Source: a bacterium (GTDB lineage: Archaea > Thermoplasmatota > E2 > JACPAO01 > JAHFTW01). From it: DNA of 64,000 bases. A program made the translations under genes and the position numbers. The notes beneath the pieces are model-generated. The model was not told the origin of the DNA and did no database searches. It worked only from the letters and a program-made list of their open reading frames with translations. The stretch covers positions 250,830-314,829 of the forward strand of contig JAZJZE010000009.1 in the NCBI GenBank assembly GCA_040390065.1, given 5' to 3'. Positions 2,793 through 23,378 of this stretch are shown piece after piece. Positions within the stretch are counted from its first letter, which is position 1, and every line of letters begins with the position of its first letter.

Positions 2793-2838
2793 GGCGCGGC
2801 CACATGGCGGCCTGTCAAAAGGCTTGGCGCGAGGGGAT

Positions 2839-6390: not shown

Positions 6391-6450
6391 GGCGCCGCGA
6401 CTCGGGCCTGCAACAAAGCCTTGATGGCGGCGGCCCGGCTGCCTCGCATC

Positions 6451-7125: not shown

Positions 7126-7128
7126 ACG

Positions 7129-9780
7129 ATGTCGAAACCTGGCGACGTCGTGGAGTTCAAGTCCGGACTCTTTGCCATCGAAGCGCCGCGCAACCTCGGC
7201 ATCCTGCTCGAACGGCGACGCGTGAAGGGCGTGGCCCTGGTTCGGCTGGCGACCCTGGACGGCGAGAAGGAGTGCAAGGCCGAACACTTGACGAAACGCC
7301 TCTTCCGGTCGCGTTACGAGGGCGACCTGCGGCAAACCGCCGATGTCGCGGCCCGGCTCCGGCACCTCGTGGCCCAGCACGCCGGCGGGGCGCTTGCGGA
7401 GGAACCGGAGGACGACCTCGACCGGCTTGAGGAGGCGCTGTGGGAGGCAACGTGCGACGACGGCCGGCCGGAGTGGTCCGAGCAGGACATCGCCCAAGCC
7501 CATTATGGCATGGCAAGTCCGGTGCAGTTGCGTGACGTCCGCGCTGCACTCGACCGGGACCGGCGTCCTGGGGTCGGGCGGTTCCAGCCTGCGGGACGCG
7601 GCGACCTGTGGCGGCCGTGGCGCCGAAGCGAAGCGGATGCGATGCGCAAGGCCTCGCAGGAATTGGCGACGCTGCGGCGGAGCCTGATCCACACCGAGGA
7701 AACGGAGCTTGGCAAGACGTTCACGGCCGTCGCCATGGATGCCGCGGCGCTTCCCAGCGACCTTGCCGCAACGTTGGCGTGGGTGCGCCGCGCGATGGAG
7801 CAGTTCGTGGACTGGGACGGGATTCCGCATGGCGAGCCCGTGGCGGGAATCGGCGGCCTCGGCGCCGTCGACGCGTTTGGCATGGACCTCCACCGGCAAC
7901 TTGGTTTTCTGGCCCAGGACTGGATCCAGAGCGAGCACACGAGCCGCTCCAGCGACTACATCCATTTCCTCCTGGGCACCCGCCTCTGGGGCCCCCAGGA
8001 TGCCGTCGACGCTCTGATCCGGCGCCACGTCAACCAGGAGGAGTTCTTCGAGCACGTCGCGGATGCCCGCGCCGAGGACGCCGCTGCCGCGCATCCCGAA
8101 CCCGACTTGGCAATGGACCCGGCCCGCACGGACCTGAGGCACTTGCCCTGCTACACGATCGATCCCCCCGATGCGAAGGACTTCGACGACGCCGCCGGGC
8201 TGGAGCCCTTGCCGGCGCCAGGCCACGTCCGCCTGTGGGTGCACGTCGCCGACGTCAGCCATTACGTGACGCCGGACTCGACGCTTGACCGCCACGCCAA
8301 GAAGCGCGCGACATCCGTCTATCTGCCCGGCCGCGTGCTGCCGATGCTGCCACACCGCCTCAGCGACCATCTTTGTTCGCTGCGCAGCGACGGCGACCGC
8401 TTCGCGCTCAGCGTTGGCATGGACGTCGACGGCGATGGCCACATCGTGGCGCGGCAGTTCCGCAAGGCGGCCATCCGCGTCACCGAGAACCTCGCGTACG
8501 GGCAAGCGTTGGCGCGCGCAAAGGCCGGCGAAGAACCGTTTGCCGGCCTCTTGGCCCTGGCGGCTCGCATGCGGCGGCATCGCGGCGGCCTGGAACTCGA
8601 GACCGGGGAACTGAAGGTGCTCCTCGGCGCCACAGGCTTCTCCGCCTTGGAGAAGCGGGCCGACGAGGCCACGCGCATGATCGAGACGTTCATGGTCGCG
8701 GCCAACGAAGCCGTTGCCGAGCACCTGGCGGCGGCGGACGTCGCGCAGTTGTTCCGCTGCCACCCTTTGCCGGACCGCACCAAGGCCAGCCGGCTGGCCC
8801 ACCAACTGGAGACGATGGGCATCGACGTGCAGATCGACCTGCCGGGCGCCAAAGCGCTGGCCGCTGGACCCGGCGAGTCCATCCTCGACCAGCTGCGGCG
8901 CGGCGGTGGCAAGCTCGAACTGTTCGGCGGCGGCATCGCAATCGCCGGCGGCGCAGCGGAAGCCCCCAAGCTGGAGGCCCCCCAGAAGGTGCCTGGCTTC
9001 GCCCAGTTGGTCCCCGAGGAGCGCGCCGCTTGGCTTGCACCGTTTCGCAAGGTGGTGGCAGCCCTCGCATCCCATCCAGATGACGCCGTGGCCGAGGTGG
9101 CGACTCTCAAGGTGCTGGCCGCGATGGGCCGCGCCTACTACACGCCAGACAACGAGGGCCACTTCGGCCTGGCCTCGACGCATTACTGCCACTTCACGAG
9201 CCCCATCCGGCGCTATCCCGACCTCGTCGTGCACCGCAACCTCAAGTGGCTGATCGACGGCCGCAGCGGCCATGCCCCCCACACCGCCGAATCGCTTCGC
9301 GCCCTGTGCGACCATTGCAGCAACCAGGAACGCGCGGCCGACCAACTCGAACGTCGCATCAAATCAAGTTGCCTCGTGCTCGCCAGCCTCGACGAAAACC
9401 CGGACCCGCAGGCAGACGCGGCCACGGAGGCTGGGGCAGGGTCAGGCCGTGAGGCGTCGGCACGAATCACCGGCATCACCCCGGCCAGCGTGTTCGTACT
9501 GCGCGGCGACGGCATCGAGGCGCGCATCCCCGGCCGCGACTTGCCGGGGGGGCCCTACCAGGCCGACGAGTGGGAGTCCATGCTGCTCTTCCCGTCGCCC
9601 ATCGACGCGGACACCGACGACAAGCGGGCCGCCGTGCAGGATGTCACGCAATGGCTCGACCCGGAATCCGGGGAACTGCGTCGGGTCCGGGCAAGGCTGG
9701 CCGACAAGGTGACCGTGCGTTTGGCGGGACGCGACGTGGCGGCGGGTCGGACGGGCGCTCAACTGCTGCGTTGGGCGTGA
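7129..9780 (+). CDS. rnr: RNB-domain exoribonuclease (RNase R/II family)
   Basis: TIDPPDAKDFDDA, VHVADVS, RATSVYLPG..PMLP, MIETFMVAANEAVA, HFGLA..YCHFTSPIRRYPDLVVHR. Confidence 0.9.
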   Translation: MSKPGDVVEFKSGLFAIEAPRNLGILLERRRVKGVALVRLATLDGEKECKAEHLTKRLFRSRYEGDLRQTADVAARLRHLVAQHAGGALAEEPEDDLDRLEEALWEATCDDGRPEWSEQDIAQAHYGMASPVQLRDVRAALDRDRRPGVGRFQPAGRGDLWRPWRRSEADAMRKASQELATLRRSLIHTEETELGKTFTAVAMDAAALPSDLAATLAWVRRAMEQFVDWDGIPHGEPVAGIGGLGAVDAFGMDLHRQLGFLAQDWIQSEHTSRSSDYIHFLLGTRLWGPQDAVDALIRRHVNQEEFFEHVADARAEDAAAAHPEPDLAMDPARTDLRHLPCYTIDPPDAKDFDDAAGLEPLPAPGHVRLWVHVADVSHYVTPDSTLDRHAKKRATSVYLPGRVLPMLPHRLSDHLCSLRSDGDRFALSVGMDVDGDGHIVARQFRKAAIRVTENLAYGQALARAKAGEEPFAGLLALAARMRRHRGGLELETGELKVLLGATGFSALEKRADEATRMIETFMVAANEAVAEHLAAADVAQLFRCHPLPDRTKASRLAHQLETMGIDVQIDLPGAKALAAGPGESILDQLRRGGGKLELFGGGIAIAGGAAEAPKLEAPQKVPGFAQLVPEERAAWLAPFRKVVAALASHPDDAVAEVATLKVLAAMGRAYYTPDNEGHFGLASTHYCHFTSPIRRYPDLVVHRNLKWLIDGRSGHAPHTAESLRALCDHCSNQERAADQLERRIKSSCLVLASLDENPDPQADAATEAGAGSGREASARITGITPASVFVLRGDGIEARIPGRDLPGGPYQADEWESMLLFPSPIDADTDDKRAAVQDVTQWLDPESGELRRVRARLADKVTVRLAGRDVAAGRTGAQLLRWA

Positions 9781-9784
9781 CGCG

Positions 9785-11254
9785 TCATACCCCGAGGCTC
9801 ATGCGCACGAAGTCGCGGATGCCCGGACCCAGGCCCACCATGATGATGGCGAACTTGACGAGGCCAATCATGGTCGGATAGCGCTGCGCGTCCTTGGGGT
9901 TCGACACGTCGATTGCGTACACGACGAGAAGACTGACGACGAGCTTGACGGGGAGGAAGCCGAAGAACGTCGGATAGTCGTGCATGGGGGCGAAGCCCGT
10001 CTGCGTCCCGGCGTCGCGCGTCCACTCGATGATTTTGCCAGAGAGGACGTGCTTCTCGTCGTAGACGCGGCCGATGTCGATGCCGATGGACGTGGCAAAA
10101 CCGTCGAGCATCTGGCTGAAGACGAGGAGCATGTTGATGGGGGAGGCGAAGGCGGCCCACTTCGGGTCGCGGCCGGCCGCCTTGTCGCGTGCCGACCAGG
10201 CTCGCGCCGCCCAGGCGATGACGATGGCGACGGCCGCTGCGGCAAACGGCGCCCACAAGGCGAGGATGACGGGGTGCGTGCTGAGGCACCGGTCCGGGAA
10301 GATAAGCGGGCACGACTGGCCGGTGGCCAAGTATGGTAGCCATGGGGCCCGCATGAACTGGGCGATGTACGCGACGGACAGCAGGATCCATCCAATCGAC
10401 ATGAAGCCGACGAGCTCGCTCGGGTCGATGCGGCCGATGCGCCGGAAGCGCCAGGCAGCGATGGCGTACGCGATGAGGCCGAACAGGGCGACCCAGATGG
10501 GGTTCACGTAGGAGTGCACCTGGTTCCAGGTCGGCGGCAGGTACAGCAGCAGGTAGCAGACGACCGGCAAGGCCACGACGAACCAGAGCTTGGCCAGCGC
10601 GCGCTCGAGGCCGGCCTTCTCCGCGATGCCCTTCAGATAGTGGCCGATGACGAAGGTGGCAACACCCATCGCGGCAAACAACAGGTAGATGGGCGGCGTG
10701 ATGAAGAAGTACTGCGTCGGCTGGCCGAACAGGTTGACGTCCTCGAGGACGTGGAAGACGGAGCCGGCGACGACCCATCCGACGGCGCCCATGATGAGCT
10801 TCGGGCCCATGACGGTCTTCTTGCGGGCCAGCATCTGCGCCGTGCCGAGGATGCACAGGCCGAGGAGTGCGGCCCAGGTGAGCGTGTTGACGATGGTGTA
10901 GCCTGAATGGGTCGTCACGCCCTGGCCGGAACACGCGGCGGCGACGATGGAGCCGTCCGGCATCAAGCACTCGGCGGAGTGGCCGGCGGCGTCAGCGTGG
11001 ATGGGGCCCCAATAGTACTGCCAGATGACTTGCCGGCCGAAGGCCTCGGGCCAGGCCTGCGATGCAATCCAGGCCATGACGGGCACTCCGATGAGGATGA
11101 GCGGGACGAGCCAGACGGGCAGGCGTTCGACGATTCCGGAGAAGCGCGACGGCCGTGGCTCCGGCGCGGGTGCGGGCGGCTGGGGCGCGACGGCCGGCTC
11201 GGCGGGGGGCGGCGCGGTCCCGGCGGATGGCTGCGTCGCGTCGGACTCGTCCAT
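9785..11254 (-). CDS. DUF63 family membrane protein
   Basis: QYYWGPI, GYTIVNT, LEDV, FFITPPIY, QMLDGFAT, YDEKHVLS, GLGPGIRD. Confidence 0.85.
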   Translation of the reverse strand: MDESDATQPSAGTAPPPAEPAVAPQPPAPAPEPRPSRFSGIVERLPVWLVPLILIGVPVMAWIASQAWPEAFGRQVIWQYYWGPIHADAAGHSAECLMPDGSIVAAACSGQGVTTHSGYTIVNTLTWAALLGLCILGTAQMLARKKTVMGPKLIMGAVGWVVAGSVFHVLEDVNLFGQPTQYFFITPPIYLLFAAMGVATFVIGHYLKGIAEKAGLERALAKLWFVVALPVVCYLLLYLPPTWNQVHSYVNPIWVALFGLIAYAIAAWRFRRIGRIDPSELVGFMSIGWILLSVAYIAQFMRAPWLPYLATGQSCPLIFPDRCLSTHPVILALWAPFAAAAVAIVIAWAARAWSARDKAAGRDPKWAAFASPINMLLVFSQMLDGFATSIGIDIGRVYDEKHVLSGKIIEWTRDAGTQTGFAPMHDYPTFFGFLPVKLVVSLLVVYAIDVSNPKDAQRYPTMIGLVKFAIIMVGLGPGIRDFVRMSLGV

Positions 11255-13894: not shown

Positions 13895-14899
13895 ATGGAC
13901 ACCAAGACCCTCGAAGCCACCGCGCAGGCGCTGGTCGCCGGCACGAAGGGCATCCTCGCGGCCGACGAGTCGACGGCGACGATCGGCAAGCGCTTCCAGG
14001 CCATCGGCACCGAGTCGACGGAGTCGAGCCGCCGCGACTACCGCCACCTCCTCTTCACGACGCCGGGTGCGGGGGATTCGGTAAGCGGCGCCATCCTCTA
14101 CGACGAGACGTTGCGGCAGAAGGCGTCGGACGGGACGCCCATTGTCAGCGTGCTGGCCAAGGCCGGCATCATCCCCGGCATCAAGGTCGACACGGGCGCA
14201 TACGACCTGCCCAACTTCCCGGGCGAGAAGATCACGGAAGGGCTCGACGGGCTGCGCGGGCGCCTAGCGGAGTACCACAAGATCGGGGCGCGCTTTACCA
14301 AGTGGCGCGCCGTCATCACGATTGGCGACGGCATCCCGACCGGGTACTGCATCAAGGCCAACGCGCAGGCCCTCGCACGCTACGCAGCCTTGGCGCAGGA
14401 AGCCGGACTGGTCCCCATCGTCGAGCCCGAAGTCCTCATGGACGCGGACAACACGGTCGAGCGCTGCGAAGAGGTGACGGCCGAAGCGTGGCGCGTCACG
14501 TTCAACGCCTTGCGCAAGGCCCGCGTGCACCTGCCCGGAATGCTCCTCAAGCCGAACATGGTGATTGCTGGCAAGAAGTGCCCGGTGCAGGCGCCTGCCC
14601 AAGTCGTGGCGGAGCGCACCGTCACGCTGCTGCGCGCCCATGTCCCCCCCGCCGTGCCGGGCATCGTCTTCCTGTCTGGTGGCCAGTCGCCCGAGCAGGC
14701 AACGGAACACCTGCGTCTCATGAACCGCCTTGGTCCGCACCCGTGGAAACTGTCGTTCAGCTACGGCCGCGCCCTGCAGGACCCGGCCTTGAAGGCGTGG
14801 GGCGGCAAGCCGGCAAACGTCAAAGCTGCGCAGGACGCGTTTGCCAAGGTCGCAAGGGCGAATGCGGCGGCGTGCGCGGGAAAGACCCTCGTGGCGTAG
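13895..14899 (+). CDS. fba: fructose-bisphosphate aldolase class I (eukaryote/bacterial Glycolytic family)
   Basis: KGILAADES, PGIKVDTG, KWRAVI, VPIVEPEV, Schiff-base lysine LLKPNMV, FLSGGQS, FSYGRALQ. Confidence 0.95.
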   Translation: MDTKTLEATAQALVAGTKGILAADESTATIGKRFQAIGTESTESSRRDYRHLLFTTPGAGDSVSGAILYDETLRQKASDGTPIVSVLAKAGIIPGIKVDTGAYDLPNFPGEKITEGLDGLRGRLAEYHKIGARFTKWRAVITIGDGIPTGYCIKANAQALARYAALAQEAGLVPIVEPEVLMDADNTVERCEEVTAEAWRVTFNALRKARVHLPGMLLKPNMVIAGKKCPVQAPAQVVAERTVTLLRAHVPPAVPGIVFLSGGQSPEQATEHLRLMNRLGPHPWKLSFSYGRALQDPALKAWGGKPANVKAAQDAFAKVARANAAACAGKTLVA

Positions 14900-14970
14900 G
14901 CCGCCGTCCTGCCTCGCAGACGTCGACCGGCCACGCCAGGCTCCGACCGCGGCGACGCGCACGAGGTGGC

Positions 14971-15312
14971 CGCGTGGCTGAGTGTGGGAAACCTGGGAGA
15001 ACAGGAATCTCGTGAAGAGAACGGGAATGGGTTCCTGTTCTCCGTTCGTCTCCGGTTCTCCCAGGCCGCCCGTGCCTGAAAGGCCAGGAAACCGTGGAAA
15101 ATGGGTGAAACGCGTTTCCGGTTTTCGGCGATTTCCTGAGCTTCCAGGCCCCCGGCGGCCCCAGCCATCGCTGCGCTCGGCTCGCCTCGCCCTCGCTCTG
15201 CGCGCTTCGCGGCGCATTCGCTCGCCCCGACCGGGGGCTGCTTCGTGTCCCTTCCATTCCTTCATGACGTCGCCGCCGTCGGAGGAACGCGGGAATGGTT
15301 CGTTGACCTGGA
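14971..15312 (+). repeat. 342-bp inverted repeat, left copy
   Basis: Reverse complement of 19923-20264. Ends checked by eye (CGCGTGGCTGAGTGTGGG...CGTTGACCTGGA); identical translations in the ORF track. Confidence 0.95.
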
Positions 15313-15326
15313 CAAGCAGGTTTTCC

Positions 15327-16307
15327 CTACGGCTGGGGCGAGCTTGCCGCGACGAGGTCTGGCATCTTCGTCCGTCCGCACAGCCACGCGTACAGTGCGT
15401 CTTCGCGGTAGCCGAACGGCGAGAGAAGGGTCTCGACGTTGCGCGCGAGGAGCCGGACGTAGGCGTCGATGGAGTACGTCTCGCGCGGCGAGCCGAACCA
15501 TGGCGATTGCTTGCCGAGGAGTTCCACGGGTTTGACCCGCGCATCCCAAGGGCCCGTCTGGCGCGACACGACGTACTTGACGTATTCGCCGGGCTTGCGT
15601 TCGGTGCCGGCGTCGCGCAGGAGTCTGAGGGCCGCCTTGGTGCCCGTGTTGGCGCTGTAGTCCTCGACGCTCATGCGGGCTTGCAGCATGAGGCCCAGGT
15701 CCTCGGGGTCGACTTCGCGTCGGCGCAGGCGTCCGGCGGCCTCCTTCGCGACGGCAAGGGCGCGTGGGATGCGCAGCAGGAAACCTTTGGCGTCATCCGC
15801 TTCGGCAAAGACGTCCAGCATGCCCTGCTGCACGTCGTACAGAAACGGCGGCGTGCTGTGGCGTTGCACCTCGATGCCGCGCACTTTGAGGGTGCCGTCC
15901 TCGAACTTGCCGTAGTAGCGGTTGGGCACGCCGACTTCGCTTGAGGTGCTGTGGGTCTTCGACGGCAACAGGACGAGCCAGCGGTAGACGCCTTCCACGT
16001 CCATGGGGACGCCGACTTCCTTGGAGACGAGGTGCGACACGTGCACGGCGTCGGCGCGCGTGATGCCGGGCTTGTGCAGGAAGACGCAGTCCGTGAGCGC
16101 GTGCACCATCGTGTAGCCTTCGCGCTGCGCCACTTCGCGGGCGCGCGTCATGCCCGCTCGTCCCAAGCATTGGATGGCCTGGTGCACCTCGGCGCAGCCG
16201 AAGCGGGCGTTGCGGTAGCGGAAGTAGCCGAAGCAGACGACGCCGAGGGCTTTGTGCTCGGATTTGATCGCTTTGGCCTTGGCGACGAGGTTGGAGGCGC
16301 TCGTCAT
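15327..16307 (-). CDS. polB2: DNA polymerase family B, PolB2 group, C-terminal half
   Basis: Motif B K..GVVCFGYFRYRNARFG, degenerate motif C HALTDC, VPNRYYG, LKVRGIEVQRHSTP, GEYVKYVV. Confidence 0.9.
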   Translation of the reverse strand: MTSASNLVAKAKAIKSEHKALGVVCFGYFRYRNARFGCAEVHQAIQCLGRAGMTRAREVAQREGYTMVHALTDCVFLHKPGITRADAVHVSHLVSKEVGVPMDVEGVYRWLVLLPSKTHSTSSEVGVPNRYYGKFEDGTLKVRGIEVQRHSTPPFLYDVQQGMLDVFAEADDAKGFLLRIPRALAVAKEAAGRLRRREVDPEDLGLMLQARMSVEDYSANTGTKAALRLLRDAGTERKPGEYVKYVVSRQTGPWDARVKPVELLGKQSPWFGSPRETYSIDAYVRLLARNVETLLSPFGYREDALYAWLCGRTKMPDLVAASSPQP

Positions 16308-16561
16308 CGGTACACCATCGAGCGGTGGCCGAAACGGAAGAACACAATTTCGTTTTCCTGGACGGCGTACATGCCGCGATAACGGCCGACATGGACGCGA
16401 TATGCTCCTCCATGCATCTTCATGACGTCGAGGCCTGGTCGAGGACGAAACGGGTTTTCCTGGAGCATCGTGAAGGCCTTCTTGAAATGCCGCTGGACAG
16501 GGTCGGGCAGGTCATCCAACTCCAGGAGGGCCGACGGGGCGATCGTGACAACAAACGGCAT
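16304..16561 (-). CDS. RelE/ParE family toxin
   Basis: 85 aa; LDDLPDPVQRHF..LQENPF, YRVHVGRYR..Y, GHRSMVY. Confidence 0.85.
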   Translation of the reverse strand: MPFVVTIAPSALLELDDLPDPVQRHFKKAFTMLQENPFRPRPGLDVMKMHGGAYRVHVGRYRGMYAVQENEIVFFRFGHRSMVYR

Positions 16562-16562
16562 C

Positions 16563-16787
16563 CTATACGAACTTCCCTTTCTTGCTGTCCCACGTCAAGC
16601 GCGGGCGTTCCTTCATGCGGCGGTCCATCTCCTTCCAGAACGCCTCCGTCGGGGTCTCGTCCATGAATGCGTTGAGCACGTCGTCGTACGTCTTGCCACC
16701 TACTTTGTACGACCTGAGGCGCCGGAGGGTCTCAGGCTTGACGGGGACGGAAGTGAAAGTGGTCGTGCGCAGGGGGGCCTTGGCCAT
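16563..16787 (-). CDS. putative antitoxin (RHH-like N-terminus)
   Basis: 74 aa directly upstream of the toxin; TSVPVKPETLRRLRSYK..GKTYDDVL. Confidence 0.75.
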   Translation of the reverse strand: MAKAPLRTTTFTSVPVKPETLRRLRSYKVGGKTYDDVLNAFMDETPTEAFWKEMDRRMKERPRLTWDSKKGKFV

Positions 16788-16820
16788 GACAATCATTACA
16801 GTCATGACAATCATGAACGT
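16785..16820. promoter_or_regulatory. candidate TA operator: 4 x 9-bp tandem repeat
   Basis: CATGACAAT CATTACAGT CATGACAAT CATGAACGT overlapping the antitoxin start; contains TCATGA palindromes. Confidence 0.55.
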
Positions 16821-16908
16821 TGCGGCAGCGGATTCATTTCACTGTCCCGGCCCAAACCATTGTCTACGCCAAGTCCATCGCATGCTGCCGCCCAGGCGGA
16901 AGTGAACC

Positions 16909-17325
16909 ATGGCCACCCAGACCAAGCAGACCCAGAAGCCCGCAGCCTCAATGACCTCGCGCAAGGTGCGTCCCGGTTTCATCTCGCACACCGAGCTCGC
17001 CAGCAAGGACCCTGCCGCCACGAAGGCGTGGTGCCAGAACGTCCTCGGGTGGCAGTTCGGCGCCCCCGTCGCGACTCCCAACGGCGACTACCACATGTGG
17101 CAGTTCGACGAGGCCAACGGCGGCGGCATCCGCAACACCAACGCGGGCGAACCCGGCGGCACCGTCCCCTACGCCGAGGTCACCGACATCAAGGCCGCCT
17201 ACGCCAAGGCCAAGAAGGCTGGCGCCACCGAGATGATGCCGCCCAGCGAAGTGCCCGGCGGCGGCTGGATCGCCATCGTGCAAGCCCCGGGTTCCGTCCC
17301 GATCGGGTTCTGGGCGCCGAAGTGA
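16909..17325 (+). CDS. VOC/glyoxalase family protein
   Basis: ISHTELASKDPAATKAW..VLGW, GGGI, PYAEVTDI, EVPGGGWIAIVQAPG. Confidence 0.88.
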   Translation: MATQTKQTQKPAASMTSRKVRPGFISHTELASKDPAATKAWCQNVLGWQFGAPVATPNGDYHMWQFDEANGGGIRNTNAGEPGGTVPYAEVTDIKAAYAKAKKAGATEMMPPSEVPGGGWIAIVQAPGSVPIGFWAPK

Positions 17326-17329
17326 AGCG

Positions 17330-17713
17330 CTAGCGCACGAACCACGCCGCAACCGATTCCGCGGCGAAGAGGGCGATGCCGATGCCGGTCCCGATGGCGG
17401 AGCCGTTTGGGCCCGTCGACAGGCTTTGCCACAGCGCGATGAGTGTGGCGGCCATGATGCCAGAGGCAAGAGACGCAATGCCCAGGCCCACGGCCGTATC
17501 GGCCCCCACTCGCCACGCGCCGTAGAGCATCACGGCGCCGCAGCCGACGGGCAAGAACCCGATGGCCAGCAGTCGGGCAAGGCGGGCATCGAAGCCGCCG
17601 CGTTCGCCGAAAGCAACCATCGTCACGGCGATCCAGTGGCCGACGCCCGAGAGGAGGGCCACGGCACCGAGGAGGAAAGCGGCAGTCGTTGCAATCCCCT
17701 GTGGGGTTGCCAC
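17330..17713 (-). CDS. small 4-TM membrane protein
   Basis: Four hydrophobic segments; fills the gap between the VOC gene and polB2-N. Confidence 0.6.
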   Translation of the reverse strand: MATPQGIATTAAFLLGAVALLSGVGHWIAVTMVAFGERGGFDARLARLLAIGFLPVGCGAVMLYGAWRVGADTAVGLGIASLASGIMAATLIALWQSLSTGPNGSAIGTGIGIALFAAESVAAWFVR

Positions 17714-17747
17714 GCCGTGGCATCGGGCAAGCGGACTTGGAGTTTCG

Positions 17748-19112
17748 CTATCCCGGGGCCTTCGCCTTCTTGAGCACGGCCTTCGCCCAGCGCCGGTGGC
17801 CCCACAAGCGACGCAGGATCTCTGACTGGTGTCCCTGCTCCTTGCAGACGTGGTAGCCGAGTTCCGGGATGACTTCGCCGTCGGGGCAGCACGTGCAATT
17901 CAGGGTATCGGACGAGAGGTTGTGGCGCACGACCAGGCTCGGGTAGTAGCCTGAGAAATCGCATGCCGCGACGTCCTCGTACAGGCCGGGTTCCGGCACC
18001 ATGATCTGGCCGCCGCGGTCGACGGCGCAGAGTGTGGCTGCGTCCTTCCAGTCTTCGGCCAGGTTGCGTTTCCACGGCAAGGCGACACCGCGGTCGGTGG
18101 CGAGGTCGATCTGCATCTGCTGCAGGGCGAAGCCGGCGCCGTTACGGTTGACATCCTGGGCTCTGCGGTTGGCCACACGTGCGAGGTACACGATGCCATG
18201 CAGGTCCTTGCGGTCGTCTTCGGAGTCGAGCGTCTTCTTGGCGAGGTCGATGTGCCAGCGGCCGCGCAAGTAGAAGGCGTGCGTCTTGAACAGCCAGCGG
18301 CCGTACGTGTGGATGCTCTTGCTGGCCTGGTCGGGCTTGTCGGGCAACGGGTCGGCGTCACGGCCCAGGCGCACCTCACCCTCGATGCCCAGGGCCTTGA
18401 TGCGGCTGAGGAGGAACGGAATGTCGAAGCGGTCGCCATGGCGCGTCACGATGACATCAGGGTCCAGAAGCGCAAGGGACGATGCAAAGGCGCGAAGCGT
18501 GTCGCGCTCTGCGGCTGCATCGCCAGGCGCCGCGCACGGCAGGACCTCGTCGCCGAGGCGGATGGACTCGAGCGGGTCCGTGAAGGCGGGCACGTAGCCG
18601 TCCTTGCGCGCGGTGACCTCGAGGCGTACAGTGCGCAGGTCGGGATCGGGGTATTCGACGGTCCAGCGGTCTTCCCCCGGTGCCGGGCGCAGTTCGATGC
18701 CCGAGGCCGAGGTTGCAAGGCGGCACATGGACCACAATCCCTGCGCATGCATCCAGCGCGACTCCTGGCCGTGGTCGACGTCGAAGAACAGGAAGCCCTT
18801 CGTGTGCGTGCGGCGCCGCAGGTCCGTCGCGATGGCCCACGTATCCTGCAGGCGCTTGGGTCGCACGCGAAGCACCTCGGTCTCGGGTCCGCGCAGCCAC
18901 AGCCGTTGCCGGGACCTCCAAGTCTTGTCGACGCGGCCGTCCTGCGCTAGCAGTTTTTCCGCAAGCGACAGCGGCTGTGTCTCGGCCTTGACGCAGAAAT
19001 CCGGGAAGTAGGGCACGAGCCGCTTCGTGACGGCATCGCCGTGCTTGACCCAGACGACGAGGCAGGACTTGCGCGGATGGGGGTAGACGTCGAAGAGCCA
19101 GGCGTCATCCAT
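17748..19112 (-). CDS. polB2: DNA polymerase family B, PolB2 group, N-terminal half
   Basis: WLFDVYP, DPDVIVTRHGDRFDIPFL, GRWHID, DRGGQIMVPEPGLYEDVAACDFSGYYPSLVVRHNLSSDTLNCTCC; ends after the first fingers helix. Confidence 0.9.
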   Translation of the reverse strand: MDDAWLFDVYPHPRKSCLVVWVKHGDAVTKRLVPYFPDFCVKAETQPLSLAEKLLAQDGRVDKTWRSRQRLWLRGPETEVLRVRPKRLQDTWAIATDLRRRTHTKGFLFFDVDHGQESRWMHAQGLWSMCRLATSASGIELRPAPGEDRWTVEYPDPDLRTVRLEVTARKDGYVPAFTDPLESIRLGDEVLPCAAPGDAAAERDTLRAFASSLALLDPDVIVTRHGDRFDIPFLLSRIKALGIEGEVRLGRDADPLPDKPDQASKSIHTYGRWLFKTHAFYLRGRWHIDLAKKTLDSEDDRKDLHGIVYLARVANRRAQDVNRNGAGFALQQMQIDLATDRGVALPWKRNLAEDWKDAATLCAVDRGGQIMVPEPGLYEDVAACDFSGYYPSLVVRHNLSSDTLNCTCCPDGEVIPELGYHVCKEQGHQSEILRRLWGHRRWAKAVLKKAKAPG

Positions 19113-19134
19113 GCCGACGCACCCCTGGACGAAC

Positions 19135-19170
19135 CACTGAACGCACTGAACGCACTGAAATCACTGAACC
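19135..19170. repeat. 4 x 9-bp tandem repeat upstream of polB2-N
   Basis: CACTGAACG CACTGAACG CACTGAAAT CACTGAACC. Confidence 0.85.
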
Positions 19171-19416
19171 CCGCAACCCGTCTGCGAAGCCCTGCTTCGC
19201 CAAGTCCTCGAAAGGTCCTCAGGTTGCGACGACGGCTTCCTCCACGCGGACCTCAAGATGGGCCTGGAAAACCAGGAAATCGAAGAAAACAAGGAAGGCC
19301 GCCGGTCGGGGCGAGCACGCCGTCGGCGCAGCCGCGGCGAGGCGAGGGCGTGGCAAGCGCGCGATGCGGAGCAAGCGCGCGAGGGCCGCCGGCGGCAGCG
19401 GAAAGCCACAGCAGCT

Positions 19417-19785
19417 TCACGCTTCCACGAGGACCGTCTGCCCGATGCGGCCCAACTCGTAGGCATCGGGTGCCTTGACGCGGCTCTCGACGAGGCCTGC
19501 GCCACGCAGCGCGGTCAGCGCCGCTTCGAGGTCGCGCCGCAGAAGGGCGAGTTCGCGGTTCTGGCCGTCCACCATCCGCATGCCCTCCAGTAGCATGGCC
19601 AGCATGACGGGGCGTTCGAAGTCGAGGTGCGGGCGCCGGTTGATGGCGTTGGAGTGGCGGCGGGCGCGGCAGACGAGTTCGTCGAACCACTCCTGCTCGC
19701 GCGGGTGCAGTTCGGCGCGAAACTGGGCGTAGCGAGAAAGGAAGATGTCCAGCGCGATTGTCGTGGTCGGGGTGGATTGTCCCAT
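19417..19785 (-). CDS. PolB2-associated small helical protein (arCOG07300-like)
   Basis: MGQSTPT...FRAELHPREQEWFDELV..ARRH...FERPVMLAMLLE followed by a coiled coil; upstream of polB2. Confidence 0.75.
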   Translation of the reverse strand: MGQSTPTTTIALDIFLSRYAQFRAELHPREQEWFDELVCRARRHSNAINRRPHLDFERPVMLAMLLEGMRMVDGQNRELALLRRDLEAALTALRGAGLVESRVKAPDAYELGRIGQTVLVEA

Positions 19786-19922
19786 GGGATTCGCTTGTAG
19801 TGGGCACAGGTTCTTCTGTTGCTTTATGGGGTGAGTGAAAACGGCACGGCGAAATAACTGGGTGAAGCGAACGTACCATCTGACGGGCCACGGACTGCAT
19901 CGATTGCACGACAACCTGCATC

Positions 19923-20264
19923 TCCAGGTCAACGAACCATTCCCGCGTTCCTCCGACGGCGGCGACGTCATGAAGGAATGGAAGGGACACGAAGCAGCCC
20001 CCGGTCGGGGCGAGCGAATGCGCCGCGAAGCGCGCAGAGCGAGGGCGAGGCGAGCCGAGCGCAGCGATGGCTGGGGCCGCCGGGGGCCTGGAAGCTCAGG
20101 AAATCGCCGAAAACCGGAAACGCGTTTCACCCATTTTCCACGGTTTCCTGGCCTTTCAGGCACGGGCGGCCTGGGAGAACCGGAGACGAACGGAGAACAG
20201 GAACCCATTCCCGTTCTCTTCACGAGATTCCTGTTCTCCCAGGTTTCCCACACTCAGCCACGCG
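19923..20264 (-). repeat. 342-bp inverted repeat, right copy
   Basis: Reverse complement of 14971-15312. Confidence 0.95.
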
Positions 20265-20299
20265 AACCTACTTGCCGAAAAGGGCGGCCACGCCGCCAG

Positions 20300-21025
20300 T
20301 CATCCGAGTTTGGCCTGCTGCGGCTTCTTGGCACTGGCCTCACCCCAAACCTTGGCTCCGCCTTGCGGTTTCACGGCCTCGGGATCCCCGCGCCGCTTCC
20401 ACACGTCCTCGGCGATGGGCACCATCTCGTACGCGTCGTTGGCCGCCGGAACGAGGAGGTTCTGCAAGGCCTCCTTCCCCGTTGCCGCCGGATCCATCCA
20501 AGCGTCTTGCCGGACCCGCGAATCCAATTCCACCACGAAGCGGTCGTGGACCTGCGCCACGAAGTCGTTGGCCGGCGCCGTCACTTGCACGTGGCCGAGG
20601 TCGTCGTACTCGTTGCCCGTACTGGTGAAGGCGTAGTGACGGCGGGCCATGAGGGCTGCAACGACCATCAGCTTGCCATCGCGGCGTTGGATGCGGAAGG
20701 CGGCCTTGGTCTTCGCGTCGCGCTCGACGACGTAGGAGATTGCGGCGAGCGCGTGGTGCTCCGGCTTGCCGAAGAGACCGCGCCACGCCGGGGATACGAG
20801 GTTGTCTCCTCGCGCATTCGTCAGCAGGCGTGGGCCGACCGGCATCCCGAGGCGCACCTTGTCCACGACGCGCTCGCCACCCTCGAGGCGGGCCACCGGC
20901 AGGAAGTCGGCGTGGTGCACGAGCGGCCGCGCGATGCGGTCGCCGGCGTCGTAGACGTAGCGCGTGCCGCCGAGGGCGTCGATGACCTCCATCGAGCTTG
21001 CATCGATGCCTTCGAGTCCGGCCAT
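20300..21025 (-). CDS. SRAP/HMCES-family protein, paralogue 2 (divergent)
   Basis: LTNARGDN, YVVE, VTAPANDFVAQVHDR, DAWMDP; N-terminus MAGLEG. Confidence 0.75.
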   Translation of the reverse strand: MAGLEGIDASSMEVIDALGGTRYVYDAGDRIARPLVHHADFLPVARLEGGERVVDKVRLGMPVGPRLLTNARGDNLVSPAWRGLFGKPEHHALAAISYVVERDAKTKAAFRIQRRDGKLMVVAALMARRHYAFTSTGNEYDDLGHVQVTAPANDFVAQVHDRFVVELDSRVRQDAWMDPAATGKEALQNLLVPAANDAYEMVPIAEDVWKRRGDPEAVKPQGGAKVWGEASAKKPQQAKLG

Positions 21026-21033
21026 GCCACATC

Positions 21034-21747
21034 TCAGAACCAGGTTGCCGGCTTCTTCGCCGCCGCCTTGCGGGGTGTTGCGCCGTAGCGCATCGCTTCG
21101 CCGATCGGAACCAAGTCGGCGTCCTCGCGGATGCCTGGCTTGAAGATGCGGTCGTCCACGGGGACGGCTTCCCATTCGTCCTCCGCCGGATGGTGCAGGA
21201 TCGCCGCGGCCTCCTTCTTTTCCGTCGCGGCCATCCATGCGTCGGCCTCCTTGGGCGACAGCGTGCAGACCTGGCGGTCGTGGAACTGGCCGAAGAACTT
21301 GTTCGGCGCCGTCGTCACGATGGCGCAGCACAACCTGCCTTCGCCCTCGTCCATCTTGCGGGGTGCGCAGAGGCCCGGCATGACGATTGGTCGGCCGTCG
21401 ATGCGGCGGAACCACAGGCTCGTCTTCTTGCCGTCGATGGTGGCTTGCTCGTAGATGCCCGTGGCGGCAACCAGGCACGGTGACTTTGCGAGCATCGAAC
21501 CCCACATCGGGCTCTCCAGCAAGCGGTCGTCCCGAGCGTTGCCGACGGGCCGGCCGCCGCCGACGGGGAAGCCCCAGCGCGCACGCACGGCCACACGTTC
21601 CCGGTCCTTGTTGACGGCGATGGGCAGGGTCGTCGTGAGGCGGACGACGGGGTGCGGAACCCAGTCGCCCTCGTAGTCCCACTTGGAGACGCGCAGGGCG
21701 TCCTGGATGTCGATGTCGGCGGCTTGCAGTCCGATGAGGCCGGCCAC
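21034..21747 (-). CDS. SRAP/HMCES-family protein, paralogue 1
   Basis: ARWGF, NARDD, CLVAATGIYE, CAIVTTAPN..FHDRQ, DAWM. Start GTG 21747 gives MAGLIG. Confidence 0.85.
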   Translation of the reverse strand: MAGLIGLQAADIDIQDALRVSKWDYEGDWVPHPVVRLTTTLPIAVNKDRERVAVRARWGFPVGGGRPVGNARDDRLLESPMWGSMLAKSPCLVAATGIYEQATIDGKKTSLWFRRIDGRPIVMPGLCAPRKMDEGEGRLCCAIVTTAPNKFFGQFHDRQVCTLSPKEADAWMAATEKKEAAAILHHPAEDEWEAVPVDDRIFKPGIREDADLVPIGEAMRYGATPRKAAAKKPATWF

Positions 21748-21773
21748 GGCGTGCGACACGGTGGCGCGGCTGT

Positions 21774-23378
21774 CTACTTTGCGGCCTTGCGCAGGAGCGG
21801 CCGTTCCACGCCGATTGCGTAGGTCTTGTAGCGACCTTGGAAACGCACGGCGATGATGCCCTCGTTCTGCAAACGGGCCAAGCGGTGCTGCGTCGTGCTG
21901 CGCGACCAGCCGCACGTCTCCATGGCGTTGAGGACATCCTTCTGCGGGGCGCCCGGGTGGGCCTCGATCCAGGAGCGCAGGTTCGCCAACTCAGGATCGC
22001 GCAGCACGGCGGTATGGCGCCACGTTTCGGTGTAGCGGCCGTGGTTCTCGAAGAAACGCATGCGCGAATGGTGTTGGTACTCGATGACGAGCCCGGCGCG
22101 CTTCAGGACGTTGAGGTGGTGCCGCGTCGTGCCCGTCGGGATGCGTACACTTCGGCAGACCTCGCGGAAGCTGGCACCGGGGTGCTCGCAGATGAAGGCG
22201 TGCAGGCTGGCGCGGCGCGGATGGGCAAGCGGGTCCTGCGGCGCGGTGAGAAGCGGCGCCAGGAAACGCAACAGGACCAGGAGCGCCGCAAGGCCGAGGA
22301 CGGCCTCACCAGTGACCGCGATGCCGGACACGAGGGTCGCCGGTGCCGGGCTTTCGTCGAGTCGCGCGTCCTGAAGCTCACCGCCGAATCCGGCAGCCGC
22401 CGAACGAGGGCCGGTCGAATGCAGCCCGCCCAGGATGACGTGGCCCGAGGCAAGCAGCGTCTGGTTGTGGGGCCCATCGCACTGCGCGCAAGAGGACGCC
22501 GAGGCAAGGGGCAGACGGACCCAGCCATCGACCTCGACATCGAAGGCCGGCCCGCCGGCCAGCGCGAAGTCGAGGGCCCCTTGCGCAGTGAGGTTGCCGC
22601 CATTCGTCCGGAACTCCTGGTGCGACAGATGGTCGACCGTCACCTCGCTGCCTGCAAGGGAGGGCGCAGCGATGCGGGTGCGGCCGCCCGGCGGCGGGCA
22701 TGGTCTTTGGGTGCACTCGGTGGACGCGTTGAACCATTCGAGTTGCCGCACGCCGGTGGCGTTGAGGGTGAACATTTCGCCACGCCCGTTTGCCCAGACG
22801 AGGTACGTTTCGTTGTCCGGGACGTCCGGAACGCGCACCGCCAAAGGCTCGTCGATGACGGTTGGCAGGAGCGGACCGATGCCTTCGTTGGAGTTGGCGA
22901 TGGCGGCCCGTCCCGTGGTCCTGAAGTCGATGCGGTCGGCCACGAGGACGAGGGAGGAGGAACCAGGGCGGCGGAAGTCGAGGGACAGGTCGTTCCATGG
23001 CGCCGGATCTTGGCGCGGTGCGTCCTGGCCTGGCCCCATCCAGCCGCCTCCCAGTGTGCCGTTGCGCATCGCTCGGACGTTCTGCATGGTGTGGTTGACG
23101 AGGGTGCCCCCGCCGAGGTTCTCGGCCCGAAGTGTGACGGCATCCGGACCGTCGGCCATGAACCAGAGGATCAGTCGCGTCACGGCGGTCGCGTTCTCGT
23201 GCCCCCCGGCGGCGGCAGGGATCGCAAACGAGACTCTGGGCTGGTCCGCGTCCGTTGCGACGGCGGTGGGGGGGAGCACGGCGGCAAGGACGATGGCGAT
23301 GCTGGCCGCGACCTGCAACCGCAACCGTAGGCGTGGGGCTGCGTGGCCGGAGTTGGAAGCGAATCTGTTGGTCTGCAT
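21774..23378 (-). CDS. membrane-anchored double winged-helix regulator with large extracellular N-terminal domain
   Basis: Signal peptide, a TM segment, then PLAHPRRASLHAFICEHPGASFREV and a second HTH WIEAHPGAPQKDV..STTQHRLARL. Confidence 0.8.
   Translation of the reverse strand: MQTNRFASNSGHAAPRLRLRLQVAASIAIVLAAVLPPTAVATDADQPRVSFAIPAAAGGHENATAVTRLILWFMADGPDAVTLRAENLGGGTLVNHTMQNVRAMRNGTLGGGWMGPGQDAPRQDPAPWNDLSLDFRRPGSSSLVLVADRIDFRTTGRAAIANSNEGIGPLLPTVIDEPLAVRVPDVPDNETYLVWANGRGEMFTLNATGVRQLEWFNASTECTQRPCPPPGGRTRIAAPSLAGSEVTVDHLSHQEFRTNGGNLTAQGALDFALAGGPAFDVEVDGWVRLPLASASSCAQCDGPHNQTLLASGHVILGGLHSTGPRSAAAGFGGELQDARLDESPAPATLVSGIAVTGEAVLGLAALLVLLRFLAPLLTAPQDPLAHPRRASLHAFICEHPGASFREVCRSVRIPTGTTRHHLNVLKRAGLVIEYQHHSRMRFFENHGRYTETWRHTAVLRDPELANLRSWIEAHPGAPQKDVLNAMETCGWSRSTTQHRLARLQNEGIIAVRFQGRYKTYAIGVERPLLRKAAK

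What the first reader, a model, noticed from the sequence alone, without database searches (positions are those of the whole stretch)
15327..19112. PolB2 polymerase split at the fingers, with its C-half wired into a toxin-antitoxin operon
Seen: two long, stop-free ORFs (454 + 326 aa) together make one PolB2-sized protein. The N-half has the exonuclease-like region, motif A (DFSGYYPS) and ends after the first fingers helix (RRWAKAVLKKAKAPG*). The C-half starts just before motif B and carries HALTDC and KVRG. The 1.44 kb between them holds a membrane gene, an opposite-strand VOC gene, an antitoxin and a RelE toxin. The toxin TGA overlaps the C-half ATG (ATGA at 16304-16307). Known: PolB2/Dpo2 has degenerate motif C and is DNA-damage-inducible and mutagenic in Sulfolobales, and two-subunit PolBs exist in Methanothermobacter. 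Inference: the break sits at a surface loop and the C-half has its own coupled start, so this may be a working heterodimer. Its halves would be driven by two promoters (damage promoter and TA autorepression), giving a two-input gate on mutagenesis. Alternatively the TA module simply stabilises the locus.
Basis: partly seen in the sequence, partly recalled or inferred. Interest (0 to 1): 0.92.

Follow-up and report, generated by a model that had tools for sequence, protein, structure and literature searches.

The report
Naturally split archaeal PolB2 polymerase
A damage-tolerance DNA polymerase gene of an uncultured archaeon is cut in two at the tip of its fingers domain by inserted passenger genes, and about half of its relatives carry the same cut with both halves kept under selection, so it most likely works as a two-chain enzyme.

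Summary
Two stop-free ORFs (454 and 326 aa, minus strand) together make one family-B polymerase. The 1.44 kb between them holds a membrane gene, a VOC gene and an antitoxin/ParE-RelE pair. The toxin TGA overlaps the C-half ATG.

The gene belongs to a Thermoplasmatota PolB2-type clade: motif C reads LTD, a PPB2-like gene lies upstream, relatives have an iRadA-like gene, and SRAP genes are neighbours.

- **The split recurs.** The same finger-tip loop is broken in 13 of 25 related genomes, with different inserts (TA, HlyIII, DsbA). Split and fused forms are interleaved on the tree, with at least 8 changes among 85 proteins.
- **Both halves are conserved.** dN/dS is 0.1-0.3, as in fused genes.
- **The halves are predicted to associate.** ipSAE is 0.87 against 0.00 for the best control, though likeness to solved PolBs may explain this.
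- **There are precedents.** Pfu polymerase split at this loop is fully active, and T4-like gp43 is naturally split there.

I read it as a working two-chain PolB2, with the TA module as a passenger that now drives the C-half. The "two-input gate" is untested and not general.

Also found: 355-nt inverted repeats flank the locus, which is inverted relative to relatives. The assembly orientation cannot be verified.

The parts
17748..19112 (-). PolB2 N-half (454 aa): N-terminal domain, degenerate exonuclease domain, palm with motif A (DFSGYYPS), first fingers helix. It ends ...KKAKAPG*.
   Evidence: Motif conservation in 18 of 18 rows. 27 stand-alone N-halves aligned, with D385, Y389 and Y390 invariant.
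15327..16307 (-). PolB2 C-half (326 aa): second fingers helix with degenerate motif B (K..GVVCFGY), motif C (HALTDC), thumb.
   Evidence: 35 stand-alone C-halves aligned, with K19, D73 and C74 invariant.
16304..16561 (-). ParE/RelE-superfamily toxin (85 aa). Its TGA overlaps the C-half ATG.
   Evidence: PF05016, 1.1e-9, 39.2 bits against a cut-off of 23. Sequence. Orthologue in the same position in G004 (53-54% identity). Internally deleted in G003 and absent in G002.
16563..16814 (-). Antitoxin-like gene (83 aa as listed). The true start may be the ATG at 16787.
   Evidence: No Pfam or NCBIfam family reached its cut-off. 83%, 77% and 65% identical (tblastn) copies sit in the same gap in G004, G003 and G002. 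Paired with toxin homologues at other loci in the order.
16784..16908 (.). Divergent intergenic region between the VOC gene and the antitoxin gene. It contains an AT-rich run of TCATGA/GTCATGAC palindromes (about 16784-16816). Inferred to be the TA promoter/operator that would also drive the C-half.
   Evidence: Sequence read directly. GC dips to 0.59 here against about 0.67 around it. The function is inferred, not tested.
16909..17325 (+). VOC/glyoxalase-family gene (138 aa), opposite strand; passenger.
   Evidence: PF00903, 1.3e-5. Among the nine inserts compared, a weak homologue was seen only in G024.
17330..17713 (-). Small hydrophobic (membrane-like) protein of 127 aa; passenger. It starts 34 nt after the N-half stop.
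   Evidence: no family. Hydrophobic stretches read by eye. Not found in the other eight inserts.
19417..19785 (-). PPB2-like (arCOG07300-like) small helical partner gene upstream of the N-half.
   Evidence: The same family lies directly upstream of polB in 15 of 18 loci. Alignment of 11 copies has an invariant N-terminus starting MG. Model has a free N-terminal arm plus three main helices, mean pLDDT 81.8. Matches the published description only qualitatively.
14971..15325 (.). Left arm of a 355-nt inverted repeat. It ends 1 nt before the C-half stop codon.
   Evidence: Member of a dispersed repeat family with 43 blastn copies in the genome.
19910..20264 (.). Right arm of the inverted repeat, 99% complementary to the left arm, upstream of the PPB2-like gene.
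   Evidence: Logan contigs break inside both arms.
20300..21049 (-). SRAP paralogue 2 (the start is not fixed).
   Evidence: PF02586, 3.4e-14. Orthologous to the gene that directly follows polB in G004.
21034..21915 (-). SRAP paralogue 1 (abasic-site-binding SOS-response-associated peptidase family).
   Evidence: PF02586, 7.1e-28. SRAP-family ORFs appear in 11 of 18 polB loci.

Best explanation
This is the PolB2-type (translesion 'mutasome') family-B polymerase of an uncultured Thermoplasmatota archaeon. Inserted passenger genes have cut it into two genes at the finger-tip loop, and it still works as a two-chain enzyme.

**Shown**
- The halves are complementary.
- The break is at the loop between the two fingers helices.
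- The same loop is broken in about half of the related genomes, with unrelated inserts.
- Both halves stay under purifying selection.

**Inferred**
- The N-half is made from the upstream PPB2-polB promoter.
- The C-half is made from the antitoxin-toxin transcript by translational coupling. Support for this is the ATGA overlap and a GGTG seven bases upstream that matches the 16S anti-Shine-Dalgarno sequence.
- The two chains reassemble through the shared palm sheet and the fingers hairpin.

The TA pair, the VOC gene and the membrane gene are cargo that landed in a permissive spot. They are not parts of the polymerase. The loop is a recurrent site most likely because it is the one place where an insertion leaves both pieces able to fold together, so such insertions survive.
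For: - **Complementary halves.**
- **Same breakpoint in relatives.** 13 of 25 genomes of the order that carry this clade are split: G000, G002, G003, G004, G012, G015, G018, G021, G022, G024, G044, G045, G047. 11 are fused and 1 is undetermined.
- **Clean junctions.** N-halves end within a few residues of ..AK..G. C-halves start with M at the [VIL] of the fused [VIL]D.[DE].
- **Inserts of 0.35-2.5 kb with different genes.** HlyIII 3.7e-45, DSBA 4.1e-42, a kelch/galactose-oxidase-like gene, and TA.
- **Tree of 18 N+C concatenates.** 6 state changes, at least 5 forced by starred branches. G004-split is sister to G010-fused (100/100) and G012-split to G011-fused (98/100). End branches of split rows are no longer than those of their fused sisters.
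- **Tree of 85 public proteins.** 30 split and 55 fused rows give 12 changes, at least 8 forced.
- **Public protein collection.** 31 of 114 N-half relatives end at the finger tip. Dozens of C-halves stand alone.
- **dN/dS (NG86).** Split-split pairs: 0.11-0.19 for the N-half and 0.15-0.25 for the C-half. Fused-fused pairs: 0.13-0.27 and 0.17-0.30.
- **Motifs.** Motifs A, B and C are conserved alike in the split and fused rows (18 rows).
- **Complex prediction.** ipSAE 0.87/0.87/0.86, best of 3 controls 0.00. Runs agree in at least 94% of contacts and partner pLDDT is at least 82. The mark was reached by 58 of 80 solved complexes and 2 of 110 mismatched pairs; these counts hold only roughly here because my own alignments were used. 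Solved single-chain PolBs exist, so this pass may be from likeness.
- **No second PolB2-type gene in this assembly.**
- **Published precedent (passages read).** Pfu polymerase split between residues 467 and 468 and translated through an AUGA overlap behaves like wild type. T4-like gp43 is naturally split in the finger tip, with 2 bp to 3 kb between the cistrons.
- **Shine-Dalgarno match.** The 16S 3' end reads GATCACCTCC. GGTG lies upstream of the C-half ATG in G000 and AGGTGAT in G004.
Against: - There is no expression or protein evidence. No RNA run holds the locus.
- dS is 0.7-2.8, near saturation, so dN/dS averages over long times and cannot exclude recent loss of function in this one genome.
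- The G012 C-half has no start codon at the junction (GTC). At least one split may therefore be a fresh disruption rather than a working pair.
- The exonuclease motifs are degenerate and motif B is non-canonical. Polymerase activity is inferred only from the retained motif A Asp and second motif C Asp, and from published work on Sulfolobus Dpo2 (abstracts in the listing; passages).
- In this genome the iRadA-like partner gene is 80 kb away. The usual operon is broken here.
- The complex prediction may pass from memory of solved PolB structures.
Confidence: 0.7

Rival explanations
1. Adaptive two-promoter gate. The split lets the cell make an active PolB2 only when both the damage-responsive upstream promoter and the autorepressed TA promoter fire.
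For: - The toxin stop overlaps the C-half start in G000. In G004 the toxin stop is 8 nt before the ATG and has an AGGTGAT Shine-Dalgarno match.
- An antitoxin-like gene is kept in the gap in 4 genomes, and its divergence tracks that of the polymerase. Antitoxin identity is 83, 77 and 65% (tblastn) where the N-half is 73, 69-71 and 56-57% identical.
- A different RelE-like gene ends 12 nt before the junction in G012.
Against: - The split genomes of four other genera carry HlyIII and no TA. This was seen in 6 of them; the G047 and G045 inserts were not examined.
- The toxin is lost in G002 and internally deleted in G003.
- The TA family is generic, with many copies elsewhere in these genomes.
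- There are no expression data.
- 11 genomes manage with a fused gene.
Confidence: 0.1
2. Targeted mobile cassette. The recurrent break reflects a site-specific or homing-type insertion mechanism, or spread of the insert with its flanks by homologous recombination, rather than survival of random insertions.
For: - At least 8 split/fused changes on the 85-row tree and at least 5 on the 18-row tree.
- All breaks fall within a window of a few codons.
- G000 and G004 share the residues SNL just after the junction although G004 is sister to a fused gene.
- Published precedent: T4-like gp43 fingertip inserts are attributed to invading DNA elements.
Against: - No integrase, transposase, homing endonuclease or intein motif was seen in the nine inserts whose ORFs I listed. 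Only the named ORFs were scanned against Pfam.
- The inserts are unrelated in content.
- No target-site duplication or terminal repeats were seen at the junctions read by eye.
- Nucleotide identity between G000 and G004 is not clearly raised next to the break: 0.82 against 0.78 over the first 90 nt of the C-half.
Confidence: 0.15
3. Decaying pseudogene. The insertion killed the gene and the two ORFs are remnants.
For: - The G012 C-half lacks a start codon at the junction.
- The iRadA-like partner is displaced by 80 kb in this genome.
- 4 of 12 other genomes of the genus have no match to this polymerase at all.
Against: - Both ORFs are full length and free of stops.
- dN/dS is 0.16-0.29 (N-half) and 0.17-0.32 (C-half) for pairs with G000.
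- Motifs are conserved as in the fused genes.
- The split state is shared by whole genera. G000 sits in a 9-row all-split clade.
- A coupled start is present.
Confidence: 0.06
4. Assembly artefact. The insert or the split is a misjoin in a metagenome-assembled genome.
For: - The genome is a 50-contig MAG, 89% complete.
- Repeats flank the locus.
Against: - An independently assembled 4670-bp contig covers 15283-19952 with 0 differences at even depth of about 12.9.
- The same architecture is found in 12 other genomes.
Confidence: 0.02

Closest known systems
Bicistronic (split finger-tip) gp43 DNA polymerases of T4-related phages (Petrov et al., as described in PMC3061061; passages read)
   Same: - A family-B polymerase is naturally cut in the finger tip into two cistrons.
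- The spacer ranges from a few bp to about 3 kb and holds unrelated inserted DNA.
- Monocistronic and bicistronic forms coexist among close relatives.
   Different: - Those are replicative phage enzymes. This is a cellular archaeal PolB2-type (translesion) enzyme.
- The inserts here are TA, HlyIII, DsbA, VOC and similar genes. No homing endonuclease was seen.
- I did not read the original Petrov papers.
Engineered split Pfu polymerase 'SQ' (PMC3061061; abstract and passages read)
   Same: - The split is at the finger tip (between Pfu residues 467 and 468), within about 10 residues of the position found here.
- The second chain is translated by coupling through an AUGA overlap, the same overlap as at 16304-16307.
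- The enzyme is fully active as a heterodimer, and the C-fragment needs the N-fragment to fold.
   Different: - It is a laboratory artefact in a PolB3-type replicative enzyme with no intervening genes.
- There the split, together with Q484R, broadened substrate use. Whether that applies here is unknown.
Split PolB of Methanothermobacter and split-intein PolB of Nanoarchaeum equitans (PMC4104785 and PMC3061061; passages read)
   Same: Archaeal family-B polymerases encoded by two genes. The Methanothermobacter halves form a 1:1 active dimer.
   Different: - The Methanothermobacter break is in the palm, about 83 residues further on, with the genes 85 kb apart. It is a PolB3 and is thought to derive from intein loss.
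- Nanoarchaeum uses a split intein. No intein sequence is present at this break.
PolB2 mutasome operon iRadA-PPB2-PolB2 (Makarova 2014, PMC4104785; Timinskas 2025, PMC11791011; passages and sections 3.1 and 3.2 read)
   Same: - The first Asp of the motif C DxD is replaced (LTD here).
- The exonuclease motifs are degenerate.
- The gene order iRadA-like, PPB2-like, polB is found in relatives.
- SRAP genes lie next door.
   Different: - The polymerase is in two genes.
- In this genome the iRadA-like gene is 80 kb away.
- The word 'split' does not occur in the main text of the 2025 survey, which discarded truncated sequences. Its supplements could not be seen.

Membership tests
Archaeal PolB2 / Dpo2 group (arCOG number recalled, not tested) | Family-B polymerase domains | tested here: met
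   PF03104 and PF00136 are above their cut-offs. The best PDB matches are Thermococcales PolBs, down to 1.9e-24 for the N-half and 1.2e-14 for the C-half.
Archaeal PolB2 / Dpo2 group (arCOG number recalled, not tested) | First Asp of the motif C DxD replaced and second Asp kept (criterion from PMC11791011) | tested here: met
   HALTDC in the window. The pattern x-T-D holds in 18 of 18 aligned rows. D73 is invariant in 35 C-halves.
Archaeal PolB2 / Dpo2 group (arCOG number recalled, not tested) | Exonuclease domain without an active site | tested here: inconclusive
   The Exo I position reads D-V-D instead of D-x-E. The Exo II ..FD is kept. Exo III could not be located. No structure comparison of the N-half was made.
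Archaeal PolB2 / Dpo2 group (arCOG number recalled, not tested) | Operon with iRadA and PPB2 (order iRadA-PPB2-PolB2) | tested here: met
   - **Relatives.** The upstream partner family, a PPB2-like gene of about 125 aa, lies before polB in 15 of 18 loci. An iRadA-like gene of about 230 aa precedes it in at least 9 of them.
- **iRadA-like profile.** A profile of 6 copies hits only RadA/Rad51 in the PDB (10 of 10 hits, best E 0.009, which is weak).
- **This window.** Only the PPB2-like gene is adjacent. The iRadA-like gene is at C9:350754-351440, 80 kb away.
- **PPB2 identity.** It rests on position, size and helical model. A Foldseek search against the PDB gave no match at E of 0.001 or better.
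Archaeal PolB2 / Dpo2 group (arCOG number recalled, not tested) | Reaches a curated PolB2-type model | tested here: not met
   The best NCBIfam models are NF004418 and NF004416 ('type B DNA-directed DNA polymerase'). Scores of 128+125 and 108+158 bits are far below the cut-offs of 692 and 516. It is therefore a separate subfamily, not a member of those equivalogs. It shares the ..CFGY form of motif B with a haloarchaeal protein of that name (P0113).
Type II toxin-antitoxin, ParE/RelE superfamily | Toxin matches the family model | tested here: met
   PF05016, 1.1e-9, 39.2 bits against a cut-off of 23.
Type II toxin-antitoxin, ParE/RelE superfamily | Small antitoxin gene immediately upstream in one operon | tested here: met
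   One base lies between the antitoxin stop and the toxin start. Homologous antitoxin-toxin pairs are adjacent at other loci: G008:C10, G019:C264, G025:C209, G029:C282. The antitoxin reaches no curated family.
Type II toxin-antitoxin, ParE/RelE superfamily | Toxicity and neutralisation | not testable with these tools
   This needs expression in a host.
Split-intein polymerases (Nanoarchaeum type) | Intein halves at the break | tested here: not met
   The N-half ends and the C-half starts within a few residues of the fused loop, with no extra domain. Bacterial relatives do carry an intein, but about 24 residues further on, in motif B.
Naturally split finger-tip family-B polymerases (T4-like gp43 type) | Break between the two fingers helices, two cistrons, variable spacer, fused relatives | tested here: met
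   The feature list is from passages of PMC3061061.

The most novel reading that the evidence does not exclude
The finger tip of this PolB2 clade is a genuine recurrent landing site for gene cassettes, and the split is adaptive rather than merely tolerated. Two routes are possible. Separating the halves under different promoters (here a stress-responsive TA promoter) would make assembly of the mutagenic polymerase conditional. Alternatively, an open finger tip would loosen nucleotide selection, as the engineered Pfu split did, and so tune an extender polymerase for damaged templates.
Probability: 0.12. Interest if true: 0.85.

Novelty: new variant of a known kind. Interest (0 to 1): 0.6.

Why it matters
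PolB2 is the polymerase required for damage-induced mutagenesis in Sulfolobus, and it is now modelled as a multi-subunit 'mutasome'. This finding gives a natural series of split and unsplit versions of such an enzyme within one archaeal order.

- It shows that the finger-tip split, known from phage gp43 and from an engineered Pfu enzyme, also arises and persists in cellular archaea, and does so repeatedly.
- Matched fused and split orthologues allow a direct test of whether a split finger tip changes fidelity or substrate range.
- It warns that surveys which discard 'truncated' PolB2 sequences miss about half of this clade.
- The TA link offers a testable case of a selfish module becoming the promoter of half of a host enzyme.

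Tried and rejected
- **Rfam on 14500-20700.** No match at E of 0.1 or better, so the 355-nt repeat is no known RNA.
- **RNA evidence.** No RNA holder is listed for the locus. Nothing can be said on expression.
- **Reads from runs X2 and X3.** They gave only short pieces of relatives at 90-95% identity. One joint, 16244 to 18003, has only 20 letters on one side. I do not use it.
- **Recombination near the break.** Sliding-window identity gave no clear signal at this divergence.
- **PPB2-like model against the PDB.** 0 matches at E of 0.001 or better. The sigma-factor likeness reported in print was not recovered.
- **Integron-cassette idea for the inserts.** Dropped, because the gene spacing in the window leaves no room for attC-like sites (read by eye).
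- **Repeat beside the displaced iRadA-like gene.** I looked for a copy that could explain its move and found none.
- **sigma-70 promoter scan.** Not run, because it does not apply to archaea.
- **Literature.** Searches for a described split PolB2 found none. The terms were PolB2+archaea+split and 'split gene'/'DNA polymerase B'/Thermoplasmatota. Supplements are closed and may list such cases.

Full report
**What is there**

The window is part of a 609-kb contig of a 2.68-Mb, 50-contig genome. Database names for its proteins place it in uncultured Thermoplasmatota. On the minus strand lie, in order of transcription:

- a 122-aa helical protein gene (19417-19785);
- the polymerase N-half (17748-19112, 454 aa);
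- a 127-aa hydrophobic protein gene (17330-17713);
- an opposite-strand VOC gene (16909-17325);
- an 83-aa antitoxin-like gene (16563-16814);
- a ParE/RelE toxin gene (16304-16561);
- the polymerase C-half (15327-16307, 326 aa).

The toxin TGA and the C-half ATG share the four bases ATGA.

The two polymerase ORFs match complementary parts of Pfam DNA_pol_B and of NCBIfam NF004418. Alignments to solved Thermococcales polymerases put the end of the N-half at about residue 474 and the start of the C-half match at about residue 487-488. That is the tip of the fingers hairpin, just before motif B. A Logan contig of 4670 bp from run X1 covers 15283-19952 without a single difference. X1 is probably the sample the genome came from.

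**Which polymerase**

- Motif A keeps its Asp (DFSGYYPS).
- Motif C reads HALTDC, with the first Asp of DxD replaced and the second kept.
- Motif B is K..GVVCFGY, not KxxxNSxYG.
- Exo I reads DVD.
- These forms are conserved across the 18 aligned relatives, split and fused alike.

In relatives the gene is preceded by a protein of about 230 aa and then by the helical protein of about 125 aa. A profile of the 230-aa protein hits only RadA/Rad51 structures, weakly (best E 0.009). SRAP genes follow convergently. This is the iRadA-PPB2-PolB2 arrangement with SRAP neighbours described for PolB2 (passages and sections read).

The closest curated models are the 'type B DNA-directed DNA polymerase' families, but the scores are far below their cut-offs. 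I therefore file it as a PolB2-type enzyme of a separate Thermoplasmatota subfamily. No other PolB2-type gene was found in this assembly. The third family-B hit, on contig C5, matches only PolB1/3-type models, and weakly.

**The split is not peculiar to this genome**

The order holds 38 species genomes. 29 of them have a match to the N-half at E of 1e-30 or better. Among the 25 genomes with a copy of this clade:

- 13 are split at the same loop: G000, G002, G003, G004, G012 in the window's genus; G015, G024, G044; G022, G045; G021; G018, G047.
- 11 are fused.
- 1 (G043) is too fragmentary to tell.

These counts rest. For G045 only the end of the N-half frame was seen. In G022 the halves lie on two contigs.

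The junctions are clean. N-halves end a few residues after ..AK. C-halves begin with Met exactly where fused genes have [VIL] of [VIL]D.[DE].

The inserts measure 353 to 2521 bp and differ in content:

- an antitoxin with toxin in G000 and G004;
- an antitoxin with an internally deleted toxin in G003;
- an antitoxin alone in G002, where the N-half stop overlaps its start;
- a HlyIII gene in four other genera;
- a DsbA gene plus an unrelated RelE-like gene in G012;
- further cargo: VOC, a membrane protein and a kelch/galactose-oxidase-like gene.

In the public protein collection, 31 of 114 relatives of the N-half end at the finger tip. Dozens of C-halves stand alone.

**History**

On a careful tree of 18 N+C concatenates the split and fused states need 6 changes, at least 5 of them forced by starred branches. 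G004-split is sister to G010-fused (100/100) and G012-split to G011-fused (98/100).

I also built a quick tree from the 114 proteins plus the window. I kept the 85 rows that were numbered P0093 or lower, covered at least 400 of the 454 query positions and had a clear state. I left out the last 14 columns before the break. That tree needs 12 changes, at least 8 forced. G000 lies in a 9-row all-split clade.

G012 still has the fused-type residues G-P-V-D in frame upstream of its C-half and no start codon there. This looks like a separate and more recent insertion.

The antitoxin in the gap is 83, 77 and 65% identical in G004, G003 and G002. This follows the divergence of the polymerase, so that insert is old and inherited with the gene.

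I cannot tell repeated insertion from re-fusion or recombination. Window identities near the break gave no signal.

**Are the halves alive**

Pairwise dN/dS within the two subclades, by pair type:

| Pair type | N-half | C-half |
|---|---|---|
| split-split | 0.11-0.19 | 0.15-0.25 |
| fused-fused | 0.13-0.27 | 0.17-0.30 |
| pairs with G000 | 0.16-0.29 | 0.17-0.32 |

dS is 0.7-2.8, so these are long-term averages. End branches of split rows are not longer than those of their fused sisters. Catalytic and structural residues are invariant in 27 stand-alone N-halves and 35 stand-alone C-halves.

A two-chain fold of the halves scored ipSAE 0.87, 0.87 and 0.86 against 0.00 for the best of three controls. 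The runs agreed in at least 94% of contacts and partner pLDDT was at least 82. The mark was reached by 58 of 80 solved complexes and 2 of 110 mismatched pairs, counts that hold only roughly with my own alignments. The interface joins the motif A strand to the motif C strands, and the two fingers helices to each other. Solved single-chain PolBs make a pass from likeness probable, so this shows compatibility, not binding.

The strongest outside support is published. Pfu polymerase split between residues 467 and 468 and translated through an AUGA overlap is indistinguishable from wild type. T4-like gp43 is naturally bicistronic at the finger tip.

**How the C-half is probably made**

The antitoxin gene begins in an AT-rich run of TCATGA/GTCATGAC palindromes at about 16784-16816. 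The region has 59% GC in a genome of about 67%. I infer that this is the TA promoter/operator and that the real antitoxin start may be the ATG at 16787.

The C-half has no room for a promoter of its own. Its ATG overlaps the toxin stop and is preceded by GGTG. G004 has AGGTGAT at this position. The 16S 3' end reads GATCACCTCC. Co-transcription with the TA pair and translational coupling are thus inferred, not shown.

The TA family is ordinary and multicopy in this order. Further copies sit near polB2 loci in G008 and G012. I read the pair as a passenger.

**Surroundings**

A 355-nt inverted repeat, 99% complementary, brackets the whole unit (14971-15325 and 19910-20264). It belongs to a dispersed family of 43 blastn copies. 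All the other copies are 86% identical or less, and the family has no Rfam match.

In G004 and G006 the polymerase runs towards convergent SRAP genes. In G000 the bracketed segment has the opposite orientation, and the switch points coincide with the repeat arms. This is either an inversion by recombination between the arms or a wrong orientation chosen by the assembler. Logan contigs break inside both arms, so the data at hand cannot decide.

The iRadA-like gene of this genome is intact but lies 80 kb away, next to an unrelated secreted-protein gene, with no repeat beside it.

**Verdict**

- The heterodimer reading is well supported by comparison, but nothing has been tested at the bench.
- The two-input gate is a minority possibility.
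- Naturally split family-B polymerases are known, including at this very loop in phages. I found no description of a split PolB2, nor of a cellular archaeal polymerase split at the finger tip in about half of an order.

Noticed in passing
window 14971-15325 and 19910-20264; 41 further copies in the genome: A modular 355-nt dispersed repeat family with internal palindromes (43 blastn copies; sub-parts 1-100, 177-270 and 284-352 occur separately). Only the two copies that flank the polB2 unit are near-identical (99%). The others are 68-86% identical. No Rfam match.
   Followed up: partly
window 15326-19909 relative to 20300-21915: The repeat-bracketed 4.6-kb segment is inverted compared with G004 and G006, where polB converges on the SRAP genes. 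Independent contigs break in both arms. A real inversion, an invertible segment and a mis-oriented assembly cannot be told apart.
   Followed up: partly
window 20300-21915 (-); also L024 (G004) 8172-10890: Tandem SRAP paralogues lie next to polB2: two in this window and an apparent run of three or four SRAP-family ORFs in G004.
   Followed up: partly
G000:C9:350754-351440 (L049 4752-5531, -): The iRadA-like partner gene is intact but lies 80 kb from PPB2-polB2. An unrelated 507-aa secreted-looking protein gene follows it, and no repeat copy lies beside it. How the operon was broken is unexplained.
   Followed up: partly
proteins P0173, P0175, P0177, P0180, P0182, P0187 and others: Many bacterial PolB2-type relatives (about 40% identity) carry what looks like an intein inserted in motif B: the sequence before S/CFGY ends in ..T[GH]N. 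One (P0187) has a LAGLIDADG domain. The site is about 24 residues after the break studied here.
   Followed up: no
L024 (G004) 889-3411; L044 (G045) 4330-7214: In G004 and G045, 2.5-2.9 kb lies between the PPB2-like gene and the polB start. This is a second place in the operon that takes up DNA. G004 has partial copies of the 355-nt repeat there and upstream of PPB2.
   Followed up: no
G008:C6:49842-50323; G012:C12:4527-5046: Further antitoxin/ParE-RelE pairs of the same family lie 1-3 kb from the polB2 genes of G008 (fused) and G012. The neighbourhood seems to collect TA modules.
   Followed up: no
window N-half residues 405-429 (about 17826-17900): The cluster N-C-x-C-C ... C ... G-H-Q (C406, C408, C409, C423, H428) is invariant in 27 N-halves. 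It may be a metal site or a set of disulfides at the base of the fingers.
   Followed up: no
G000:C5:168355-171726 (L023): A third, very divergent family-B polymerase-like gene (745 aa or more). It matches PolB1/3-type models only weakly (E about 1e-6).
   Followed up: partly
window about 19230-19400: By eye, the spacer between the PPB2-like gene and the N-half resembles parts of the 355-nt repeat. Two low-support opposite-strand joints in run X1 point there. Blastn at E of 1e-3 or better did not report it.
   Followed up: no
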